This document shows positions 4,726 to 35,375 of a stretch of 38,293 nt of DNA, piece after piece (position 1 is the first letter of the stretch; the number at the start of each line of letters is the position of its first letter). The position numbers were made by a program, and so were the translations under genes. The stretch is taken from assembly GCA_017997155.1 (NCBI GenBank), contig JAGOFO010000005.1:1-38293 (forward strand), in the 5' to 3' direction. Source of the stretch: Myxococcota bacterium. GTDB lineage: Bacteria; Myxococcota_A; UBA9042; DTJE01. The notes under the pieces were generated by a model that was not told where the DNA came from, made no database searches, and saw only the letters and a list, made by a program, of their open reading frames with translations.

Positions 4726-4777
4726 TCCCCTTTTCCGTTCATCTTCGTTCCATCAACCATCACCCCTGAGCATCACC

Positions 4778-4992
4778 AAAACGAAACCTGGGTTGGTTCC
4801 AGAGTGGTCCAAAAACGAAACCTGGGTTAGTTCCCGGAGGGGGTAAAAACGAAACCTGGGTTAGTTCCCGGAGGGGGTAAAAACGAAACCTGGGTTAGTT
4901 CCCGGAGGGGGTAAAAACGAAACCTGGGTTGGTTCCCGGAGGACCCCAAAGAGAAACCTGGGTTGGGGAAAGGGGTGGGGAAAAGTACTTTT
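4778..4992 (+). repeat. Array 1 of the GAAACCTGGGTT repeat: 6 direct copies at an exact 34-bp period, plus a G-rich tail
   Basis: Core copies start at 4783, 4817, 4851, 4885, 4919 and 4953. Units 4817-4918 are three identical 34-mers. The array lies in the gap between convergent genes. Confidence 0.95.
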
Positions 4993-10482: not shown

Positions 10483-12768
10483 TTGAAACAGAATCTGAAG
10501 ACGATCCTTGTCTGGGTGCTGCTGGTCGGAGTGTTTTTTGCGATCGTGAAGACCGTTGATCGCAAGCCTGCCTCGACCGACATCAAATTCTCGGACTTCA
10601 TCGTGCTGGCGCTGGGTTCTGACAGCAAGTCCGACCAGACGGAAGTGCCCGCCGGGCATGCCTCCATCAAGGCGACCACTATCGAGGCAGCCCCGGTTGA
10701 GGGACAGGGTTCCGTAAGGGCGAATGATATTCGCCCTTCTGGGCAGGGTCAGGGTCAGGCGCAGGGACAGGGACAGGCTGGCGACGGCGCGAATGTCGCT
10801 CCTTCTCCTGAACCCGGAAAAGAACCGGCCCCGGTGCCCGCACCCGTGCCCGCACCCGTGCCTGCCGCTGAACCAGTCCCCGCACCCGTCCCGGCCCCCG
10901 TCCCGGCCCCCGTCCCGGCCACTGCACCCGCTCCCGCCCCTGTACCGGCACCGGCCCCTGCCGCCCCCGCGGCCAGTGTGGTCAAGGCTCCTCTGGGAGC
11001 GGCCGTGACTCCAGGCGCCGACTCAGCGTCCGAGCCCATGTTCAAGGTCGTGTCGATCGTCGTGACGGGCCGCAGGATCGAGGGAAAGTTTGCCGACGGC
11101 AAGGAATTCAAGACGTTTGGTGATATCACCGCGTATCAGAAGGACCTTGTCGCCGAGGGAATCGAGGTCACCTACAAGGACGAAACCGGCGGCATCTGGA
11201 CGGCACTGCTTACGTCCTGGCTGCCGATGATCTTCTTCCTCGCCATCTTCATCTTCTTCATGCGCCAGTCCTCGCAGGGTGGCGGCGGAAAGCTCTTCCA
11301 GTTCGGCAAGAGCAAGGCACGCCTGACCAACGAGGGCCAGACCACGGTTACTTTCAAGGACGTGGCCGGCATCCAGGAAGCCCAGGTTGAACTCTCCGAG
11401 ATCGTTGAATTTTTGAAGTCCCCGGATTCCTTCACGAAGCTTGGCGGCCGCATTCCGCGCGGCGTGCTCCTGATGGGACCTCCGGGCACCGGCAAGACGC
11501 TTCTCGCCAAGGCTGTGGCTGGTGAGGCCGGCGTACCTTTCTTCTCGATCTCCGGCTCGGATTTCGTCGAGATGTTCGTCGGCGTTGGCGCTTCCCGTGT
11601 CCGCGACCTTTTCGAACAGGGCAAGCGCAAGGCGCCGTGCATCATTTTTATCGACGAGATCGACGCGGTCGGTCGTCAGCGCGGCACCGGTCTTGGTGGC
11701 GGCCACGACGAGCGCGAACAGACACTGAACCAGCTTCTGGTGGAGATGGACGGCTTCGAGGCCAATTCGGGGGTCATCATCGTGGCGGCCACGAACCGTC
11801 CCGATGTTCTGGATCCCGCTCTGCTGCGTCCCGGCCGTTTTGACCGCCGCGTTGTGGTTTCCAGCCCGGACATAGCGGGCCGCGAGGCGATTCTGAAGGT
11901 GCACACGCGCAAGGTCCCGCTGTCCGGCGACGTGGATCTGGGCGTCGTGGCCCGCGGCACACCCGGCTTCGTGGGCGCGGACCTTGCCAACATCGTCAAC
12001 GAGGCGGCCCTGCTTGCCGCGCGCCGTGGAAGCGACAAAGTCTGCATGGTCGACTTTGACGAGGCCAAGGACAAGGTGATGATGGGCACCGCCCGCAAGA
12101 GTTTCGTGATGGGCGAGGAAGAGAAGAGACTGACCGCCTATCACGAGGCCGGCCACGCTATCGTCGCCAAGTCGGTCCCGGGCGCCGATCCCCTGCACAA
12201 GGTCACGATCATTCCGCGCGGCATGGCACTGGGCATGACCCAGCAGCTTCCGCTTGAGGACAGGCACACCGCGTCGCGCCGGTATCTGGTCGACAGGCTC
12301 GCGATCCTCATGGGTGGCCGCGCGGCCGAGAAGGTCGTGTTCGAGGACATCACGACCGGCGCCGGTCAGGACATCAAGGTCGCCTCGGACATCGCCAGGA
12401 AGATGGTCGCTCAGTGGGGCATGTCCGTTCTTGGTCCGGTTCATCTGGATCAGAACGAGGAAATGGTCTTCCTGGGGCGCGAGCTGTCGCATCAACGGGC
12501 GGTCAGCGAGCAGACCGCGATGCGCGTGGACCAGGAGATTTCCAAGCTGGTCACCGAGGCTCACGAGACCGCGCTCCGGATACTGACAGAGCGCAGGTCA
12601 GCGCTTGAGGCGCTTGCCAGCGCGCTGCTGGAACGTGAAACGCTGGATGGCTGGGAAGTGGACCGGCTGATCGTCGATTGCGGATTCGAGCCGGCGACGC
12701 TCAGCCACACGCCCCGGGTAGCGACGCCTCAGGAAGGCGGGTCCCCCCGACGGTACCGCGTCGGTTGA
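10483..12768 (+). CDS. ftsH: ATP-dependent zinc metalloprotease FtsH with an expanded periplasmic region
   Basis: Walker A is [23 protein letters not shown]. It also has [11 protein letters not shown], the second region of homology, and the HEAGHAIV zinc site. The start is TTG. There are two TM helices, at about residues 7-22 and 238-260. Confidence 0.95.
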
Positions 12769-16972: not shown

Positions 16973-17755
16973 ATGGATCAGGCAAGACAGGCGATCGAAC
17001 GCGAGGTCAAGCTGACCGTTGATGGCGCCGCGGATTACCTCGCGATGGCGTCGGCTCTGCCGGTTCCCAGGCGTTGGGGGCTGCAGTTGAACGTGTATCT
17101 CGACACGTTGTCGAGGCGTCTGCGTTCGAATCGGATTTCACTCAGGATCCGGGTCACGCCGGACTTCGCGCTCTTGACGTTGAAGACGCCTGCCCGGTCG
17201 GCGGACAGCGGCGACGGGGTGTTCTGCAATCTTGAGACCGAGGTTCCTTTTGACAGGGAGATGGCGGTCGAGTGGATCAACGCCCCGGAAAGGGCCGCTC
17301 CGGCGTCGTTGGCCGGTTTTGAAGCACTTGCCACGGTGATTGCCGATGAACCTCTGGTGGTGATCGGCTGGTCCATGACCAGGCGGGCCGTTTGCGATAC
17401 TGCCTGGGGCGTGACTCTCGAACTTGACGAGACGGTGTTTCCGGACGGCACCCGTGACTTCGAGATTGAGGCCGAGCACGAGGACGCGGCGCTGGCGCGT
17501 CGGGTTATCGATCTGCACGCGGATCGGGTGGGGCTTAGACTTGGCGCGCAGACCAGATCGAAGCACGCCCGGGCGATGGAGCGCCTGGGAAGCGTCCGCT
17601 GGGTGCTGCCTTCCGGAAGCCCCGAGGCGCCGCATCCTCCGTTGTTTCCATCGGCGGCCCCGGCAGGGGCATTCGGGCTGGTCAAGGTCGGCGCGGCTGG
17701 TACGGTGATCGACAGTACGGAGAGGGGCAGTGGGGGGAAAGCAGGCTCGAACTGA
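16973..17755 (+). CDS. CYTH-domain protein (CyaB/thiamine-triphosphatase-like triphosphate tunnel enzyme)
   Basis: The N-terminal IEREVKL matches the CYTH ExExK signature, with further acidic/basic strands (SLRIR, ETEVPF, FEIEAEHE). ATG 16973 is preferred over TTG 16958. Confidence 0.6.
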   Translation: MDQARQAIEREVKLTVDGAADYLAMASALPVPRRWGLQLNVYLDTLSRRLRSNRISLRIRVTPDFALLTLKTPARSADSGDGVFCNLETEVPFDREMAVEWINAPERAAPASLAGFEALATVIADEPLVVIGWSMTRRAVCDTAWGVTLELDETVFPDGTRDFEIEAEHEDAALARRVIDLHADRVGLRLGAQTRSKHARAMERLGSVRWVLPSGSPEAPHPPLFPSAAPAGAFGLVKVGAAGTVIDSTERGSGGKAGSN

Positions 17756-19709
17756 TCTGGCCGATGTCGGCGACGCGCGGACAGGTTTTTCGCCCGCGCC
17801 CGGGGTCCAGGCGGCCCCCGGCATCGCCGCGGTGTTCCTGGTCACCCTGGTTTTCTATCTGCTCTGGTTGCCCGGGACCGCTTACTGGCTGGATTCGCCG
17901 GAGTTCATGACAGCGGCGGCCTCGCTGGGGCTGGCTCATCCACCGGGACACCCCGTGGTCGCGGTTCTGATGAAACTGGCGTCGCTGCTGCCGCTTGGCG
18001 ACGTGCCGTTCAGACTTAACCTGGTGGGCGCGATTCTGGGCGCGGTTGCCGCCGGTTTGACCGGTGGTATCGCATGCGTCGTCGCGCAGCGGGTTCTTCA
18101 CCGTCTGAACAGGGACGGCAACACGGGCCGTTTGCGTCACGCATCGACCCTTGTCGGAGTGGCAGGCGGGCTGCTTTACGGCCTGGGCGCTTCCTCGATG
18201 ATCCAGGCGATGGCGGCCGAGGTCTACACCCTTAACGCGGCCCTGGTGCTTGGCGCGGTCTATCTGTTGATTTCCAGTCCCGACGGCGCCGACGCGCGTC
18301 GCACGCTGGCTGCCGCTGTTCTGATGGGCCTGGCCTTTGCCAACCATCACCTCCTGGGTCTTCTTGCCGGTCCGGCCGTGCTCGTGGCGGCTTTCCGGTC
18401 CCGGCGGGACACCCGGACGGTTATCGTCGCGGCCATGACAGCGTGCCTGGTGGCGGTGTGCTGCTATCTTTATCTGTGGGTGCGTTCGGCCGCCGGAGCC
18501 TGGCCCACCTGGTCTCCCGTGCGCGACCCTGCCGGCTTTTTCTGGTATGTGTCAGCGTCCATTTTTTCGCAGTCGCTCGGGGGCTTCGAGCAGTCGGGTG
18601 GTGGCATCGGCCAGAACCTTGCGTTGGCGTCGGTTGTCGCGGCCGGTTCCCTGGGCGTGGCCGGCGTTGTCCTGTCGCTCGGGGGCGCCTGGCTGGGCGC
18701 GCGTTCCGGAGCGGCCCGCGAGATCGTGGTCTTACTGCTGCTCGCGGCCGGGGGCTTTGGTTCAAAGGTCATGATGGGGATCCTCGACCCCTCGAATCCG
18801 GACGACCACGGTTACTTTTTGACAGCGCTGGCTGCGACCGCGGTTCTGGCCGCGTCGTTTTTCTGCCTTCCGATGGCAGCCGGAGGGGGCAGGGCGGGCC
18901 GGGTCGTGCGCGGCATTGCCTCGGCCCTGCTTGCCGCGATGGTCGTGGCGGTCATCCCCGCCAGCGTCGACGTTGGACGCGACAGATCACATTTTGACCA
19001 CACGCGGCGGGTTTCCAGACTGGTCTGGAGCGATGTCCCCAGCGGCTCGGTCGTGCTGGTGTCGCACTACCCGGTGTTCTTCCTGATGCAGTACCAGCAG
19101 ATGGTCGAGGGTGTGCGGCCGGATGTTTCGCTTGTCCAGCAGAGTCTATACTACAAGGCGCGCGGCGGCCAGTGGTACGCCCGTGAGATGAAGGCCCGGC
19201 ATGCCGACCTTTCCGGCCTGATGGACGCCTTCCAGGCAACCTCGCAGGTTTCCTGGCCGGCCCTTGAAGCGCTTGCCTCCCGCAGACCGGTTCTTCTTGA
19301 CCCGTCTCCAGACTTCGCCGCCCCCCTCGACCGCGTCTCCTTCGCGGGCTGGTTCTTTTCCGTCTCCCCCAGTCCTGCCGCACCCCCCAACCCAACCCAG
19401 GTTTCTTTTTCGGGCCCCGGAAACGCTCCCGGAAAAACAACCCAGGTTTCTTTTTCGGGGGGTGAACCGGCTGTGGAAAGGGGGGTAGACGCGCATCTGC
19501 TGTCCTTCGATCGCGTGCTTGGCCGGGCGCCGATGTCCAATGTCGAGACCAGGAGGGTGGTGACCCGTAATCTGGTTTCCGCGGGTGACTGGCTTCAGGG
19601 CGCAGGATACGACGCAGCCGCCATTGAGCTGTTTTCCCGTGCCGCGTATTACAATCCCGAGGATCGTTCGATTCGTGGACGCCTCGGAGATGTGGCGGGA
19701 GACAGATGA
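17730..19709 (+). CDS. Polytopic membrane protein of the DUF2723 / GT-C (PMT-like glycosyltransferase) type with a C-terminal soluble TPR-like region
   Basis: YWLDSPEFMTAAASLGLAHPPGHP is the characteristic first-loop motif of DUF2723/TMEM260-like GT-C proteins. More than 8 hydrophobic helices follow. The start codon is uncertain (GTG 17730 overlaps the CYTH gene). The stop overlaps the next ATG (ATGA). Confidence 0.65.
   Translation: MGGKQARTDLADVGDARTGFSPAPGVQAAPGIAAVFLVTLVFYLLWLPGTAYWLDSPEFMTAAASLGLAHPPGHPVVAVLMKLASLLPLGDVPFRLNLVGAILGAVAAGLTGGIACVVAQRVLHRLNRDGNTGRLRHASTLVGVAGGLLYGLGASSMIQAMAAEVYTLNAALVLGAVYLLISSPDGADARRTLAAAVLMGLAFANHHLLGLLAGPAVLVAAFRSRRDTRTVIVAAMTACLVAVCCYLYLWVRSAAGAWPTWSPVRDPAGFFWYVSASIFSQSLGGFEQSGGGIGQNLALASVVAAGSLGVAGVVLSLGGAWLGARSGAAREIVVLLLLAAGGFGSKVMMGILDPSNPDDHGYFLTALAATAVLAASFFCLPMAAGGGRAGRVVRGIASALLAAMVVAVIPASVDVGRDRSHFDHTRRVSRLVWSDVPSGSVVLVSHYPVFFLMQYQQMVEGVRPDVSLVQQSLYYKARGGQWYAREMKARHADLSGLMDAFQATSQVSWPALEALASRRPVLLDPSPDFAAPLDRVSFAGWFFSVSPSPAAPPNPTQVSFSGPGNAPGKTTQVSFSGGEPAVERGVDAHLLSFDRVLGRAPMSNVETRRVVTRNLVSAGDWLQGAGYDAAAIELFSRAAYYNPEDRSIRGRLGDVAGDR
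19394..19450 (-). repeat. Array 2 of the GAAACCTGGGTT repeat: 2 copies 45 bp apart, embedded in frame in a CDS
   Basis: AACCCAGGTTTC occurs at 19394-19405 and 19439-19450. Both copies sit in the longer repeat CAACCCAGGTTTCTTTTTCGGG. They translate to TQVSFSG twice in the 17730..19709 ORF. Confidence 0.9.
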
Positions 19710-20668
19710 TGAAACCGATCGACAAGCTCATCGATGGCTTCAATTACGACCTGATCGTCAGGAGGGGGCTGTCTCACCACACGATCGAGGCGTATGGCCG
19801 AACGTTGAGCCGCTTCGCCGCCTGGCTGGTCGCTCTGCGCGGTGAGGAAGGTGATCCCGGCTCATTGTCCAGACTCGAACTCGAGGATTTCGCCAGATCG
19901 CTTCGCGAGATGGGGCTTGGCGATCGCAGTCTGTCGGCCGCGGTGGTCGCCCTGCGTCAATTTTATCTGTGGTACTGCGGCGAGACCGGTCTGGAATCGA
20001 ATCCGATGGAGGATTTCGAGGTTCCTGCGTTCAACGCGCCTCTCCCGGTCGTTTTCGACGAGATGGATATCGAGGCGGTGCTCGCAGCGCCGAATGTCGC
20101 AACCCCGCAGGGCCTGCGCGATCGAACGATCCTGGAGGTCCTTTACGGTTCCGGCCTGCGTATCAGCGAGGTCCTTTCGCTGGCGATCGGGGACATAGAC
20201 ACCGTGGCGGGTTTCGTCATGGCCCGGGGAAAGGGGCGCAAGGAGCGCCTGGTGCCCATTTCCGACTCGTGCCGCGAGGCCTTGCTGAACTACCTTGATA
20301 ACGGACGTCCACAACTGATGAAGGGGCGACAGGTCGTCCGGGGCCGCCGGGGTGCCGATCGGCAGGCGGACGCAAACGCCCGTTTCAGGCGCGAGCCTCT
20401 GTTCGTCACCGCCCGCGGCACCGTGTTGTCCAGGCAGGGCTTCTTTAAGAATCTGCAGGGTTACGGGATCAAGGCCGGCTTGCTGAAAAACATTTCGCCG
20501 CACAAACTCAGGCATTCCTTTGCCACACACATGGTCGAGAACGGCGCGGACCTCCGTTCCGTTCAGGAGATGCTGGGCCACGCGGACATTTCAACAACCG
20601 AGATCTATACACATGTCAGTCGCGGTCACCTGAAGAAGGTTTATAAGAAGGCACACCCTCGCGCCTAG
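19706..20668 (+). CDS. Tyrosine site-specific recombinase, XerC/XerD family
   Basis: HKLRHSFATHMVENGADLRSVQEMLGHADISTTEIYTHV contains the catalytic R-H-R-Y region. The N-terminal SAM-like core-binding domain is present. An extra basic insertion (RGRRGADRQADANARFRR) precedes the catalytic core. Confidence 0.85.
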   Translation: MMKPIDKLIDGFNYDLIVRRGLSHHTIEAYGRTLSRFAAWLVALRGEEGDPGSLSRLELEDFARSLREMGLGDRSLSAAVVALRQFYLWYCGETGLESNPMEDFEVPAFNAPLPVVFDEMDIEAVLAAPNVATPQGLRDRTILEVLYGSGLRISEVLSLAIGDIDTVAGFVMARGKGRKERLVPISDSCREALLNYLDNGRPQLMKGRQVVRGRRGADRQADANARFRREPLFVTARGTVLSRQGFFKNLQGYGIKAGLLKNISPHKLRHSFATHMVENGADLRSVQEMLGHADISTTEIYTHVSRGHLKKVYKKAHPRA

Positions 20669-27699: not shown

Positions 27700-27802
27700 T
27701 GTGGTCAGCCTCAAAAAAAGCCCGCTGATTCCTACCACGTAAGCCACCTTCTATCAAGTACCTGCCTGCATTTCCCAACCTTTTCCACCACCATCCCCAC
27801 CC

Positions 27803-28003
27803 AACCCAGGTTTCCATTTCTACCCAACCCAGGTTTCGATTTTGGCCCTCTCTGCCCAACCCAGGTTTCCATTTCCGGCACCTTGAACCCAACCCAGGTT
27901 TCCAATATTTGCCAGTCCAGACCCAACCCAGGTTTCCAATATTTGCCAATCCAGACCCAACCCAGGTTTCCATTTCTGGCGCCTTGAACCCAACCCAGGT
28001 TTC
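27803..28003 (-). repeat. Array 3 of the GAAACCTGGGTT repeat: 7 direct copies (minus-strand orientation)
   Basis: AACCCAGGTTTC starts at 27803, 27826, 27858, 27891, 27925, 27959 and 27992. The array lies in the divergent intergenic region between the DsbA-like gene and a kinase gene. Confidence 0.95.
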
Positions 28004-28136: not shown

Positions 28137-29936
28137 GTGAAAGGCGTCGAGGGCGAGATCGTCGGCGGACGGTACGTGATTGGACGTCAAGTCGGTTCCG
28201 GCGGTTTTGGAACAGTCTTTCTGGGACGTCAGATCAATCTCGACCGCGAGGTCGCCATCAAGGTGATGCGACGGGGTCCAGAGGAACCGGCAGTCGCTCG
28301 CGAACGCTTCAGGCGCGAGGCCATTCTCAGCAGTGGTTTGAGTCATCCGAACATCGTTACCTGTCACGACTTCCTCGTCGACGATGATGACGATCTGATC
28401 CTGGTGATGGAATACCTGCGTGGCGTCACGATGGACAGGATTCTGGCGGCGTCTGGTCGGATGGAGCCAGGCAGGGTGGCGGATCTCGTCGCAGGAGTCG
28501 CAGCAGGCCTTGGCGAGTGCCACCGCTGCGGGATTGTTCACAGGGACATTAAGCCGTCGAACATCTTCATTATCGATGAGGGGACAACCAGAGAGAGGGC
28601 GAAGATCATCGACTTCGGCATTCTGTGGGCCATGCCGGACTTTGACGGGGGCCTTCCCGAATTGACTAGGGCCAACGCCTTCATCGGGACTCCCGAGTAT
28701 GTCGCTCCCGAGGTCCTTTTCGGTGCTCTTCCCGACGGAGGAACCGATCAGTACGCGCTCGCCTTGGTCGTGCTGCGAGCAGTGACTGGTCAGCTCCCAT
28801 TCCCAGACTCCAAAGGCGCGGCGCTGTTGAAGAGGTTGACAGATCGGCCGCCTTTGCTGGATCACGAGGTCATGCGGGCGTGGCCGACCGTTCGTGGCGT
28901 GTTGTTCAAGGCATTGTCTCCGGATCCGGGGGATCGTTTTGAAGACATCGACCAGTTCGGTTCGGCCCTTGCCGATGCAGCCGATGTTGGCAGACGAGCA
29001 GCGCAGGCAGGTTCGGTCACGACCGAAACCGTGGTTGAACTGAATCACCCCGGGCTTCCGTGCGATAGTTCATCAGCCTTTGTCCGCGCGTCGAACAACG
29101 CGATCGTTGAGGACAATGGCGAGGCTGCGGATATCTCATCCCAGGTTGAAGCTATTTCATCCCAGGTTGAAGCTGACGGAACCAGACCATCTGCGGGTCA
29201 CCGCATCAAGTGGCTTGCATTGCTGTTCGCCCTCGTGGCTGTTGGCTTTGGAACTGGCGTTGTCTACCTTGTGGTGTCTGACGCCGGAGCTCGGACCGTA
29301 TCGGCGCCTGCGGGCCATCCTGTGGTGGCAGCCGTTGCTCCTGACCCGTCGGAAGCCGAGGAAGACACGACTCCTCCTGTTTCGTCTGCGTTGCCTCGGA
29401 TGGCTGCCCCCGAAACAACTCCCGAAGCACTTGCGCCGTCGCCGGTCCTGGCGTCGGAGCCCCCTGTGGACAAAACCACTTCAGAGTCCGTTTCAAAGGC
29501 CGCGCGCACTGTAAAGACAGAACCAGTGGCCGAGCGTCCACGGACAAACAGGCCGGAGGTCTCCCGAAAGCCTTCCACCCGTTCGCCTTCCAGCATGAAC
29601 GCGGGGTCTGGAGATACCTCGACAGTCAAGCGCCCCTCGCCAGATCCATTGCCAGCGGTTGAACCGGTCCAGATCTCCCAAGCGATCCCTGCACCTGCGC
29701 CTGCGGTTCCGACTGAGGTTGCACCGTCTGAGGAGACGGCCCTGATAATCAATGCGGAACCCTTTGGCCAGGTTACTTATGATGGGCGCCGGATGGGACA
29801 GACTCCAGTAGTAATTGAAAGCCCCAAGCCGGGCCAGCATACGGTCGAGGTCGTCAGCGCATCGAACGTCACTATCAGAAGGGTGGTGACTGTCGAAGAG
29901 GGAAAAAGAAAGGTGGAGTTCTTCAGCCTGGACTGA
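28137..29936 (+). CDS. Hanks-type Ser/Thr protein kinase with TM helix, Pro-rich linker and C-terminal PEGA-like domain
   Basis: GSGGFGTVFLG, VAIKVM, HRDIKPSNI, DFG and TPEYVAPE motifs. The TM helix is WLALLFALVAVGFGTGVVYLVV. The C-terminal INAEPFGQVTYDGRRMGQTPVVIESPKPGQHTVEV resembles a PEGA domain. The GTG start is preceded by GGAGG. Confidence 0.9.
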   Translation: MKGVEGEIVGGRYVIGRQVGSGGFGTVFLGRQINLDREVAIKVMRRGPEEPAVARERFRREAILSSGLSHPNIVTCHDFLVDDDDDLILVMEYLRGVTMDRILAASGRMEPGRVADLVAGVAAGLGECHRCGIVHRDIKPSNIFIIDEGTTRERAKIIDFGILWAMPDFDGGLPELTRANAFIGTPEYVAPEVLFGALPDGGTDQYALALVVLRAVTGQLPFPDSKGAALLKRLTDRPPLLDHEVMRAWPTVRGVLFKALSPDPGDRFEDIDQFGSALADAADVGRRAAQAGSVTTETVVELNHPGLPCDSSSAFVRASNNAIVEDNGEAADISSQVEAISSQVEADGTRPSAGHRIKWLALLFALVAVGFGTGVVYLVVSDAGARTVSAPAGHPVVAAVAPDPSEAEEDTTPPVSSALPRMAAPETTPEALAPSPVLASEPPVDKTTSESVSKAARTVKTEPVAERPRTNRPEVSRKPSTRSPSSMNAGSGDTSTVKRPSPDPLPAVEPVQISQAIPAPAPAVPTEVAPSEETALIINAEPFGQVTYDGRRMGQTPVVIESPKPGQHTVEVVSASNVTIRRVVTVEEGKRKVEFFSLD

Positions 29937-30956: not shown

Positions 30957-31142
30957 AAAACGAAACCTGGGTTCGAAATTCCGGTGCCTGAAACGGACCC
31001 AGAAACGAAACCTGGGTTCGACAAAAACGAAACCTGGGTTCGAAATTCCGGTGCCTGAAACGGACCCAAAAACGACCGGAAAAAGAAACCTGGGTTCGAG
31101 TTTTTTGACCTGTATATGTGCCTGAAAAAGGAAACCTGGGTT
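30957..31142 (+). repeat. Array 4 of the GAAACCTGGGTT repeat: 5 direct copies
   Basis: Copies start at 30962, 31007, 31029, 31085 and 31131. The 45-nt block 30957-31001 is repeated exactly at 31024-31068. Confidence 0.95.
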
Positions 31143-35159: not shown

Positions 35160-35375
35160 GAAACCTGGGTTGTGTTTTTAGGTCCCTGAATTCGGACGAA
35201 AACAGAAACCTGGGTTGGCAAAAATCGAAACCTGGGTTGGCCAAGAATCGAAACCTGGGTTGGCCAGAAATCGAAACCTGGGTTGGCTCCATGACGGCCA
35301 GAAATTGAAACCTGGGTTGGTCAGAAATCGAAACCTGGGTTGGCTCCATGACGGCCAGAAATTGAAACCTGGGTT
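35160..35375 (+). repeat. Array 5 of the GAAACCTGGGTT repeat: 8 direct copies
   Basis: Copies start at 35160, 35205, 35227, 35250, 35273, 35307, 35330 and 35364. The 55-nt block 35265-35319 is repeated at 35322-35376. Confidence 0.95.

What the first reader, a model, noticed from the sequence alone, without database searches (positions are those of the whole stretch)
19389..19460. Two repeat copies lie inside a coding sequence at a spacing of 45 bp (15 codons), giving a duplicated TQVSFSG peptide
AACCCAGGTTTC at 19394 and 19439 lies within the 17730..19709 ORF (DUF2723/GT-C-like membrane protein), about 90 codons before its stop. Both copies are embedded in CAACCCAGGTTTCTTTTTCGGG and are read as T-Q-V-S-F-S-G twice (PPNPTQVSFSGPGNAPGKTTQVSFSGGEP). 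This segment lies in a Pro/Gly-rich linker between the membrane domain and a C-terminal TPR-like segment. It is the only array with a spacing divisible by 3 and the only one inside a gene, which fits selection to preserve the reading frame after invasion of a CDS. The motif is antisense to the gene. Alternatively, the 3' 86 codons could be a separate small gene fused into one ORF because the repeat has no stop codons.
Basis: partly seen in the sequence, partly recalled or inferred. Interest (0 to 1): 0.7.

Follow-up and report, generated by a model that had tools for sequence, protein, structure and literature searches.

The report
Genomic repeat inserted in-frame in gene
Two copies of a short DNA repeat that litters the spaces between genes of this Myxococcota bacterium have settled, in-frame, inside a floppy loop of a membrane-protein gene and are translated as a passenger peptide, which is a real but not unprecedented kind of event.

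Summary
Two identical 22-nt units (CAACCCAGGTTTCTTTTTCGGG, 19393-19414 and 19438-19459), 45 bp apart, lie inside one intact 659-aa DUF2723/TMEM260-like gene. The 12-nt core has 28 exact copies in five clusters in the window (0.2 expected) and no one-mismatch variants.

Orthologue comparison shows a derived in-frame insertion. Close relatives carry two copies or one (exactly 45 nt fewer). Orthologues at 53% identity or less, and about 66 kb of their syntenic DNA, carry none.

The segment sits in a length-variable loop that AlphaFold2 predicts as unstructured. The C-terminal helical domain after it is conserved in all orthologues and evolves mainly at third codon positions, so the ORF is one translated gene.

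The DNA is conserved, not the peptide. The cores show 0 changes across relatives about 89% identical (about 7.6 expected), while the spacer shows 7/23. In relatives the same 12-mer sits in other genes in other frames (NPGF; antisense ETWV).

In-CDS array periods (45, 57, 57) are all divisible by 3, against 19% of intergenic spacings. All spacings also follow a ladder of about 11.3 bp.

The closest analogues are Rickettsia palindromic elements and intragenic heptamer repeats. What recognises the core is unknown.

The parts
17730..19709 (+). Host gene: single 659-aa DUF2723/TMEM260-like (GT-C type) membrane protein
   Evidence: ORF. Pfam PF11028 E=4e-27. 64 homologues and conserved synteny CYTH - DUF2723 - Xer-like recombinase. 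Annotated as MBP7380927.1, Myxococcota bacterium. AF2 model pTM 0.84.
19377..19463 (+). Derived segment (about 29 codons) absent from orthologues at 53% identity or less; approximate limits taken from the protein alignment
   Evidence: Alignment A1, columns about 610-640, gapped in P0003-P0006. Residues 553-576 have pLDDT below 50 and residues 546-578 are coil.
19393..19414 (+). Repeat copy 1 (22-nt extended core; 12-nt invariant core at 19394-19405), read as (P)TQVSFSG
19415..19437 (+). 23-nt spacer between the copies (contains two CCGGAA motifs), read as PGNAPGK; evolves fast
   Evidence: 7/23 nt differ from L001, against 0/44 in the two cores.
19438..19459 (+). Repeat copy 2 (identical 22-mer; core at 19439-19450), read as (T)TQVSFSG
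   Evidence: This is the copy retained in the one-copy relative L002.
19464..19706 (+). Conserved C-terminal helical (TPR-like) domain, translated in the same frame as the body of the protein
   Evidence: NVETRRV...NPxDR is conserved in all 16 orthologues. Helices 579-656 have pLDDT 81-95. Substitutions by codon position 5/8/20 vs L001 and 6/7/23 vs L002.
4783..4964 (-). Intergenic array 1 of the same family: 6 copies, period 34, between convergent genes
   Evidence: There are 5 copies in a 99.5%-identical strain, L146.
27803..28003 (+). Intergenic array 2: 7 copies, spacings 23-34, in the divergent DsbA-like / Ser-Thr kinase intergenic region
   Evidence: The orthologous region is 146-192 bp and repeat-free in L193 and L194, against 389 bp here.
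30962..31142 (-). Intergenic array 3: 5 copies, spacings 45, 22, 56, 46, between co-directional + strand genes
35160..35375 (-). Intergenic array 4: 8 copies, spacings 45, 22, 23, 23, 34, 23, 34, in the divergent adenosine deaminase / DJ-1 intergenic region

Best explanation
The two copies are members of a lineage-specific interspersed direct-repeat family of this Myxococcota clade. The family has an invariant 12-nt core, AACCCAGGTTTC, with the wider consensus cC-core-NWTTTYnGG. The copies became lodged in-frame in a disordered, length-variable loop of a DUF2723/TMEM260-like membrane protein. They are translated as a passenger peptide (TQVSFSG twice), and the protein continues in the same frame into its conserved C-terminal helical domain.

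Shown:
(i) The segment is a derived insertion.
(ii) It gains and loses whole 45-nt (15-codon) units. The two-copy state is ancestral to the clade at about 89% identity, and one unit was lost in one lineage.
(iii) Selection acts on the DNA core, not on the peptide.
(iv) In this lineage the same core also sits in other genes, in other reading frames and on the other strand. Multi-copy in-CDS arrays always have periods divisible by 3.

Inferred:
- Only stop-free, frame-preserving events in tolerant loops survive purifying selection.
- Unit gain and loss happens by replication slippage or unequal recombination between the identical 22-nt cores.
- The core is kept invariant because it is the recognition site of a sequence-specific DNA-binding factor that contacts one face of the helix. 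This would explain why spacings everywhere fall on a ladder of about 11.3 bp, and why in-CDS arrays use the ladder rungs divisible by 3 (45, 57).

The identity of that factor is unknown.
For: Family and non-randomness: 28 exact copies against 0.2 expected, and none with one mismatch. Extended consensus. The same arrays occur in independent assemblies of the same and related genomes.

Derived insertion: orthologues P0003-P0021 lack the segment. L003, L193, L194 and L195 (about 66 kb of syntenic DNA) have no exact copy, and their DsbA-kinase intergenic region is short. Only the P0001 cluster (15 members listed, two copies each) and P0002 (one copy), out of 64 homologues, contain TQVS.

Unit gain and loss: L002 differs by exactly 45 nt. 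The tree is (window,(L001,L002)), from 92 vs 46 and 44 informative sites, so L002 lost a unit. Array 1 has 6 copies here and 5 in a strain 99.5% identical.

One translated gene: the C-terminal domain is conserved and fused in all orthologues. Substitutions after the repeat fall mainly at third codon positions, 20/33 and 23/36.

Tolerant site: residues 553-576 have pLDDT below 50 and lie in a coil, between confident flanks.

DNA-level rather than peptide-level constraint: 0 differences in 66 core nt vs L001 and L002 (about 7.6 expected), but 7/23 in the spacer, including first and second codon positions. The same core is read as TQVS, NPGF or antisense ETWV in a lipoprotein-like gene, a GH63-like gene, TAtT and MutS2 of related contigs. 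The MutS2 copy lies in an insert of about 40 aa that is absent from 7qv3 and from orthologues at 61-66% identity.

Frame rule: 4 of 4 in-CDS spacings are divisible by 3, against 10 of 52 intergenic (P about 0.007 for three independent arrays).

Helical ladder: best period 11.2-11.4 bp, R=0.79, p about 1e-10 after de-duplication.

Not an RNA element or promoter element: arrays occur in convergent, co-directional and divergent intergenic regions and in both orientations. Fold z-scores are not significant. There is no Rfam family.
Against: No binding protein has been identified, so the functional-site part is inference from invariance and phasing only.

Core invariance could also be produced by ongoing copying or gene conversion. 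The TAtT case points that way: 24 nt of repeat sequence replace native codons with no length change, and 10 of 24 nt differ from sister lineages.

The 11.3-bp ladder could partly reflect the modular build of a few unit types that were then amplified.

Neither the insertion boundaries nor the mechanism of first arrival can be defined, because the linker cannot be aligned at DNA level with repeat-free orthologues.

The number of independent in-CDS arrays is small: three, plus one ambiguous case at a gene start.

Translation through the segment is inferred from evolution, not observed.
Confidence: 0.75

Rival explanations
1. Purely selfish or neutral repeat. The family has no cellular function. 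It spreads and stays homogeneous by repeated copying (an unidentified transposase, short-patch gene conversion or templated repair). The CDS copies are just one tolerated landing.
For: Distribution is patchy across lineages: sister lineages L003, L193-L195, L198 and L199 have none, and L198 and L199 carry different repeat families instead. Copy number varies. The family occurs in every kind of intergenic region with no orientation rule. In TAtT, 24 nt were replaced in place, which looks like conversion. Arrays are strongly depleted from coding sequence: 4 of 5 arrays lie in the 9% of the window that is non-coding.
Against: There is no decay spectrum: 28 exact copies, 0 with one mismatch, and two-mismatch hits at chance level. 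Cores are unchanged across genomes about 89% identical, while adjacent spacers diverge by 30%. The strict spacing ladder of about 11.3 bp is not expected for junk. No terminal inverted repeats, target duplications or hairpin were found. The window contains no transposase or reverse transcriptase.
Confidence: 0.3
2. The peptide is the selected object. TQVSFSG is a functional duplicated motif of this protein (for example a modification or interaction site), and the DNA match to the intergenic repeats is secondary.
For: The peptide is Ser/Thr-rich and sits in an exposed loop of a predicted glycosyltransferase. Both copies are kept in the 15 listed members of the species-level cluster.
Against: 26 other copies of the same 12-mer are non-coding. 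Synonymous sites inside the cores are invariant while neighbouring codons change at all positions. In other genes the core is read in other frames or antisense. 62 of 64 homologues lack the peptide. One close relative works with a single copy.
Confidence: 0.04
3. The copies act as a cis-element embedded in the 3' end of the CDS, such as an operator or internal promoter element for the downstream Xer-like recombinase gene (start 19706), or as an mRNA structure.
For: The copies lie 256-301 bp upstream of the next start codon and on the same strand. The 91-nt segment folds somewhat better than shuffles, z about -2.4 on either strand.
Against: The recombinase start overlaps the DUF2723 stop (ATGA at 19706-19709), which implies co-transcription and translational coupling. 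No promoter-like site was found in 19200-19800. Repeat-free orthologues have the same gene pair. Intergenic arrays show no consistent position or orientation relative to genes and no significant folding.
Confidence: 0.07
4. Two genes fused into one ORF, or a pseudogenised or misassembled region. The last roughly 86 codons are a separate small gene, or the repeat is an assembly artefact.
For: The core has no stop codon in any of the six frames, so an ORF could run through it by accident (sequence).
Against: All 16 aligned orthologues, including the repeat-free ones, have the C-terminal domain fused to the body. The codon-position substitution pattern continues after the repeat. The AF2 model packs the C-terminal helices confidently. 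The same two-copy sequence is found in at least 5 independent assemblies.
Confidence: 0.02

Closest known systems
Rickettsia palindromic elements (RPEs): selfish repeats inserted in-frame in protein-coding genes (Ogata et al. 2000, as summarised in PMC10969869)
   Same: A genome-wide repeat family found in both intergenic DNA and CDSs. Intragenic copies are in-frame, add a peptide without destroying the host protein, and sit where the fold tolerates them (for RPEs; here).
   Different: RPEs are palindromic elements of about 100-150 bp, inserted as single copies, each encoding a conserved peptide. Here the unit is 22-57 nt and not a hairpin. It forms direct tandem arrays with a 12-nt invariant core and variable spacers, and it is read in different frames in different genes.
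Interspersed short direct-repeat sets such as TAACTGA / STRR heptamers of Beggiatoaceae and cyanobacteria (PMC4679880)
   Same: An invariant short unit scattered in many mostly intergenic sets. Copy-number changes occur in whole units. A few sets sit inside ORFs in variable surface loops or at protein ends. A repeat-binding protein is suspected but unidentified. Distribution across lineages is patchy.
   Different: The heptamers are contiguous and mostly lie immediately upstream of start codons in one orientation. The forward orientation carries stops in all frames. Here the cores are separated by 10-56 nt of variable spacer on a ladder of about 11.3 bp, show no orientation rule, and are stop-free in six frames.
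REP/BIME elements and their RAYT transposases (PMC2817692)
   Same: High-copy, mostly extragenic, clustered and regularly spaced. [quoted passage not shown]
   Different: REPs are imperfect palindromes that form stem-loops and alternate in orientation within BIMEs. Here all copies in an array are direct, no stable hairpin is predicted, and no RAYT gene is seen in the DNA available.
MIRU/VNTR-type tandem repeats (own knowledge: Supply et al. 1997)
   Same: Interspersed loci of units tens of bp long with strain-to-strain copy-number variation. Some are read through by translation.
   Different: MIRUs are 40-100-bp units without an invariant core-plus-variable-spacer build or helical quantisation. 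This comparison rests on memory and was not tested here.
Helically phased direct-repeat binding sites: plasmid iterons, ParR-parC centromeres, and LytTR/OmpR-type regulator sites (own knowledge)
   Same: Direct repeats of a conserved core spaced by whole numbers of helical turns (22-23 bp is two turns), as expected for proteins bound on one face of the DNA.
   Different: Those systems have one or a few arrays per replicon or regulon next to a cognate gene. Here there are five clusters in 38 kb, in all intergenic contexts and inside genes, with no cognate protein identified.

Membership tests
The window's own interspersed 12-mer repeat family | Exact core AACCCAGGTTTC with flanking consensus cC-core-NWTTTYnGG | tested here: met
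   Both CDS copies have the exact core, a preceding C, and the tail TTTTTCGGG. The first 31 nt of the CDS unit nearly match the 33-bp unit of L166 and L191.
The window's own interspersed 12-mer repeat family | Spacing on the n x 11.3 bp ladder | tested here: met
   45 bp is four turns. Ladder statistics: R=0.79, p about 1e-10.
RPE-like in-frame intragenic repeats | The same repeat family is present in intergenic DNA and in CDSs, with intragenic copies in-frame and the ORF intact | tested here: met
RPE-like in-frame intragenic repeats | Insertion at a structurally tolerant, exposed position | tested here: met
   Coil with pLDDT below 50 at residues 553-576, between confident domains. The column range varies in length among orthologues.
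RPE-like in-frame intragenic repeats | Palindromic element of about 100-150 bp encoding one conserved peptide | tested here: not met
   The unit is 22-45 nt. There is no significant hairpin. Peptides differ by frame: TQVS, NPGF, ETWV.
MITE | Terminal inverted repeats and target-site duplications flanking the element | tested here: not met
   Only sporadic 10-nt, 90% inverted matches, with none consistent across the five arrays.
REP/BIME | Imperfect palindrome forming a stem-loop; alternating orientation within clusters | tested here: not met
   All copies within each array are direct. Fold z-scores run from +1.25 to -1.64 for the intergenic arrays.
REP/BIME | Cognate RAYT (Y1 transposase) in the genome | not testable with these tools
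   Only fragments of the genome are available. None was seen among the window's genes.
CRISPR array | Repeats of 24-48 nt separated by unique spacers of similar length; cas genes nearby | tested here: not met
   The core is 12-22 nt. Spacers are 10-45 nt and often repeated within an array. No cas domains were found in the window.
Known structured RNA family (Rfam) | Match at gathering score to any of 4227 covariance models | tested here: not met
   Only tRNAs matched in the window plus 10 loci.
Phased protein-binding direct repeats (iteron/operator-like) | Conserved core repeated at whole numbers of helical turns | tested here: met
Phased protein-binding direct repeats (iteron/operator-like) | A cognate DNA-binding protein | not testable with these tools
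   This needs DAP-seq or pull-down, or phylogenetic profiling on complete genomes.
DUF2723 / TMEM260-like GT-C glycosyltransferase (host gene) | Pfam PF11028 above the gathering score, multi-pass membrane body, conserved orthologues | tested here: met
   95.6 bits against a cut-off of 24.2. The helical membrane body is modelled at pTM 0.84. 64 homologues were found.

The most novel reading that the evidence does not exclude
The 12-mer arrays are helically phased binding sites of an unidentified, lineage-specific DNA-binding (chromosome-organising or regulatory) protein, and they remain under selection even inside genes. In-CDS arrays would then carry an overlapping code that must satisfy both the triplet frame and a helical register of about 11.3 bp, hence periods of 45 and 57 bp. 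New sites could be written into existing codons by short-patch templated conversion, as at the TAtT gene, where 24 nt were replaced with no length change.
Probability: 0.3. Interest if true: 0.75.

Novelty: new variant of a known kind. Interest (0 to 1): 0.55.

Why it matters
This is a clean, well-controlled natural example of non-coding repeat DNA becoming protein sequence. Empty-site, one-copy and two-copy states are all available in related genomes. The case shows the filters that let such events survive: they must be stop-free, have a period divisible by 3, and land in a disordered loop.

The family itself seems undescribed. It has a perfectly invariant 12-nt core, variable spacers and a spacing ladder of about 11.3 bp, and it sits in all intergenic contexts and in several genes. 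It points to an unknown sequence-specific factor in an uncultured Myxococcota clade.

Practically, these arrays break assemblies, since several contigs end in them. They also create length polymorphism in annotated proteins.

Tried and rejected
1. Promoter or upstream-element idea. My first impression was that arrays point toward the downstream gene. GC3 frame plots and Pfam showed arrays in convergent, co-directional and divergent intergenic regions, in both orientations.
2. RNA element. There is no Rfam hit, and fold z-scores are not significant for the intergenic arrays.
3. MITE or REP. No terminal inverted repeats or hairpins were found.
4. Internal promoter or terminator in the CDS segment. 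None was found beyond chance.
5. Genome-contig scan with a single 14-mer. A tandem pattern should have been used, as was done for the metagenome scan.
6. The metagenome hits at 18-48% GC are not relatives. They are giant-virus (Nucleocytoviricota) and other unrelated tandem repeats that happen to contain the same 12-mer within a longer palindrome.
7. Automated core-versus-flank divergence test on orthologous intergenic arrays. It was confounded by paralogous alignment of repeat units and is not used.
8. A full-text literature search for the 12-mer found only unrelated eukaryotic primers.
9. The lone copy in TAtT was expected to be an insertion, but it aligns without a gap to native residues.
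10. The 21-bp SSQVEA duplication in the kinase linker (29132-29174) shares only CCCAGGTT. It cannot be assigned to the family.
Full report
OBSERVATION. The 12-mer AACCCAGGTTTC is at 19394-19405 and 19439-19450 on the + strand, 45 bp apart. Each copy lies within the identical 22-mer CAACCCAGGTTTCTTTTTCGGG. Both are inside the + strand ORF 17730..19709 (659 aa), which matches Pfam PF11028 (TMEM260-like/DUF2723) at E=4e-27. The copies are read as PTQVSFSG (555-562) and TTQVSFSG (570-577). The 12-mer occurs 28 times exactly in the window, against 0.20 expected, and no copy has a single mismatch. Two-mismatch hits are at chance level. The other 26 copies form four intergenic direct-repeat arrays: 4783-4964 (-), 27803-28003 (+), 30962-31142 (-) and 35160-35375 (-). 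The extended consensus is cC-AACCCAGGTTTC-NWTTTYnGG.

Spacings of 45 and 33 bp also occur in intergenic arrays. The motif as written is on the coding strand.

ONE GENE, NOT TWO. The window is from a Myxococcota MAG, and NCBI annotates this ORF as one 659-aa DUF2723 protein, MBP7380927.1. Sixteen orthologues at 38-91% identity all have the C-terminal segment (NVETRRV...NPxDR) fused to the membrane body. Synteny is conserved: CYTH, then DUF2723, then a Xer-like recombinase overlapping the stop, then a response regulator. After the repeat (19460-19706), substitutions against two relatives about 89% identical fall at codon positions 1/2/3 as 5/8/20 and 6/7/23. This is the signature of a translated frame. 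An AlphaFold2 model built on the orthologue alignment (pTM 0.84) gives confident helices 579-656 and a confident body. Residues 553-576 have pLDDT below 50 and residues 546-578 are coil. That is exactly the repeat segment.

A DERIVED, UNIT-WISE VARIABLE INSERTION. In the protein alignment the segment lies in a length-variable stretch. The window and P0001 (91%) have two TQVSFSG copies, P0002 (86%) has one and is 15 aa shorter, and P0003-P0021 have none. Of the 64 homologues, only the P0001 cluster (15 members listed, two copies each) and P0002 contain TQVS.

At DNA level L001 has both copies. L002 has one and lacks exactly 45 nt. L003, L193, L194 and L195, about 66 kb of syntenic DNA from orthologue-bearing genomes, have no exact copy. 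Their DsbA-kinase intergenic region is 146-192 bp, against 389 bp in the window, where array 2 sits.

With L003 as outgroup, L001 and L002 are sisters (92 informative sites against 46 and 44). The two-copy state is therefore ancestral to this clade and L002 lost one unit. Array 1 has 6 copies in the window and 5 in a contig 99.5% identical. The arrays therefore behave as variable-number tandem repeats.

THE DNA IS CONSERVED, NOT THE PEPTIDE. Against L001 and L002 the cores show 0 differences in 66 nt. About 7.6 would be expected from the gene-wide divergence of 10.7% and 13.1%. The 23-nt spacer between the copies differs at 7 positions from L001, spread over all codon positions.

A metagenome scan for tandem pairs of the 12-mer returned 69 stretches. 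Those at 54-65% GC include contigs of the same species (L146, L148, L160) and of related Myxococcota. In these relatives the same core lies inside other genuine genes:
- Three sense copies at 57-bp spacing are read LTQVSDS in the N-terminal linker of a 725-aa lipoprotein-like protein.
- Two sense copies at 57-bp spacing are read NPGF before the catalytic domain of a GH63-like hydrolase.
- One antisense copy is read ETWVG just before the Walker A motif of MutS2.
- One sense copy is read NPGFFFGG in a TAtT protein.

The MutS2 copy lies in an insert of about 40 residues. The insert is absent from B. subtilis MutS2 (7qv3) and from orthologues at 61-66% identity.

The TAtT copy is different. It aligns without a gap to the native ELDP(S/T)Y(Y/F)xGGP motif of 8g52 and of sister lineages. 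Twenty-four nt of repeat sequence replace native codons, and 10 of those 24 nt differ from L198. This looks like short-patch conversion rather than insertion.

The sister contigs L198 and L199 (45 kb, syntenic) have no copy at all and carry other repeat families.

TWO PERIODICITIES. Across 14 de-duplicated intergenic arrays of this lineage, 10 of 52 spacings are divisible by 3. All four spacings of the three independent in-CDS arrays (45; 57, 57; 57) are divisible by 3 (P about 0.007 for three arrays).

Separately, all spacings cluster at 22-23, 33-35, 43-47, 56-57 and 66-68 bp. The best period is 11.2-11.4 bp (R=0.79, p about 1e-10 after de-duplication). The in-CDS periods are the rungs of this ladder that are also multiples of 3.

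WHAT THE FAMILY IS NOT.
- Arrays occur between convergent, co-directional and divergent genes and in either orientation. They are therefore not promoter-proximal elements or oriented RNA elements.
- No Rfam family matches.
- Intergenic arrays do not fold better than shuffles.
- There are no consistent terminal inverted repeats.
- There is no promoter-like site in the CDS segment.
- The window's other genes are ordinary chromosomal genes, without a transposase or reverse transcriptase.
- Arrays avoid coding sequence. Four of five lie in the roughly 9% of the window that is non-coding.

MECHANISM. Shown: the segment is a derived, in-frame insertion in a disordered loop. It changes by whole 45-nt units. 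The core is under a DNA-level constraint, and it occupies several genes in several frames.

Inferred: first, purifying selection removes all intragenic events except stop-free ones, with a period divisible by 3, in tolerant loops. The core has no stop in any of the six frames. Second, slippage or unequal recombination between the identical cores changes the unit number. Third, the invariance of the core together with the helical ladder is best explained by a sequence-specific DNA-binding factor that contacts one face of the helix. Continual homogenisation of a selfish element is the main rival (0.3). The factor is unknown, and I could not test for one.

COMPARISON WITH KNOWN SYSTEMS. The closest described phenomenon is the in-frame intragenic insertion of Rickettsia palindromic elements (PMC10969869). 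This element shares the in-frame, tolerated, translated-passenger behaviour. It fails the defining features of RPEs: a palindrome of about 150 bp and one conserved peptide.

The interspersed TAACTGA/STRR heptamer sets of Beggiatoaceae and cyanobacteria (PMC4679880) share an invariant unit, patchy phylogenetic distribution, indels of whole units, a few intragenic sets in surface loops, and an unknown binding factor. They differ in being contiguous and mostly oriented just upstream of start codons.

REP/BIME, MITE and CRISPR definitions are not met (see the membership table). The 12-mer is not mentioned in any bacterial paper in the searchable library. I therefore rate it a new variant of a known kind.

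LIMITS. Only fragments of the genomes were available. There is no expression or proteomic evidence. The number of independent in-CDS arrays is small.

Noticed in passing
window arrays 4783-4964, 27803-28003, 30962-31142, 35160-35375; L127, L138, L140, L161, L180, L185: Start-to-start spacings of the 12-mer are quantised at 22-23, 33-35, 43-47, 56-57 and 66-68 bp. That is n x about 11.3 bp, the helical repeat expected for underwound bacterial DNA (R=0.79, p about 1e-10). Exceptions are the 27-bp units in L180 and the 19-21 bp spacings.
   Followed up: partly
L185:5514-5537 (also L127:1156, L149:6931): In a TAtT (TRAP-T component) gene, 24 nt identical to the window's copy 2 (AACCCAGGTTTCTTTTTCGGGGGG) encode NPGFFFGG. 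They occupy the place of the native DP(T/E)YFYGG with no length change, and 10 of 24 nt differ from the sister lineages L198 and L199. It looks like a short-patch conversion that wrote the repeat into a structured, conserved motif.
   Followed up: partly
L144:9488-9628, L187:6955-7117, L157:87-465, L183:3105-3152, L153:4735-4959, L196, L197 and other contigs at 18-40% GC: Giant-virus (Nucleocytoviricota) contigs encoding eukaryote-type Topo II, PolB, MutS and collagen-repeat proteins; two are GVMAGs. They carry tandem units of 36, 42 or 43 bp, starting 5-30 nt after the stop codon of a co-oriented gene. Each unit has a hairpin palindrome xGGAAACC-CA-GGTTTCCx with covarying outer stem pairs, followed by a CCTTCCT box. 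The same palindrome-plus-box build also occurs in soil contigs at 61-64% GC (L128, L134, L158, L190). It is not in Rfam. It may be a 3'-end or termination hairpin family. It shares the 12-mer with the bacterial repeat, probably by coincidence of the search design.
   Followed up: partly
window 29132-29174: A 21-bp tandem duplication (TATCTCATCCCAGGTTGAAGC twice) in the variable juxtamembrane linker of the Ser/Thr kinase gene 28137..29936 gives SSQVEA twice. It shares CCCAGGTT with the repeat core, read in the same xCC-CAG-GTT frame. It could be a decayed in-CDS copy or a coincidence; three extra 8-mer events were seen against about 1 expected.
   Followed up: partly
window 4727-4736 / 4966-4985, 27790-27802, 19380-19393; L140:2148-2163: The first core of most arrays is preceded by a C-rich tract (ccccacccc, cccccc), and the last is often followed by a G run (gggg). 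At array 1 this gives a 10-nt inverted match CCCCTTTTCC / GGGAAAGGGG flanking the array.
   Followed up: no
window spacers, e.g. 19418-19423 and 19430-19435; 4800-4815; 30976-30990; L166 and L191 units: A second recurring spacer motif, CCGGAA(A/T), lies 5-8 nt upstream of many cores. The first 31 nt of the CDS unit nearly match the 33-bp unit of L166 and L191, which suggests unit subfamilies shared between loci.
   Followed up: no
L198:4518-4650; L199:1812, 1924, 9004, 17051, 17204: Sister lineages without the 12-mer have their own repeats. L198 has a 33-bp tandem array (TGATTTTCTAAAGGCAGGCAGCGAAAAGAACCT, four copies). L199 has an interspersed REP-like hairpin GGGCGGATGAAAATCCGCCC (five copies). 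So repeat families turn over between close lineages.
   Followed up: no
window 10743-10961: Several overlapping 6-30-bp tandem repeats (CAGGGA, GTCCCGGCCCCC and others) lie inside the N-terminal part of the FtsH gene 10483..12768. They give a Pro-rich low-complexity insert with a weak Trypan_PARP-like hit. L193 shows the same CAGGGA-type 12-mers.
   Followed up: no
L002:14493-14515; L127:8765-8961; L180:1-262: Several metagenome contigs end inside one of these arrays, so the repeats break short-read assemblies.
   Followed up: no
L166:9460-9526 / L191:1271-1337: Two copies at 33-bp spacing lie at the extreme 5' end of a 194-aa lipoprotein-like ORF (MIRPRKFEPRFLFWPRKFEPRFRFW...). It is unclear whether they are translated or lie upstream of the true start.
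   Followed up: no
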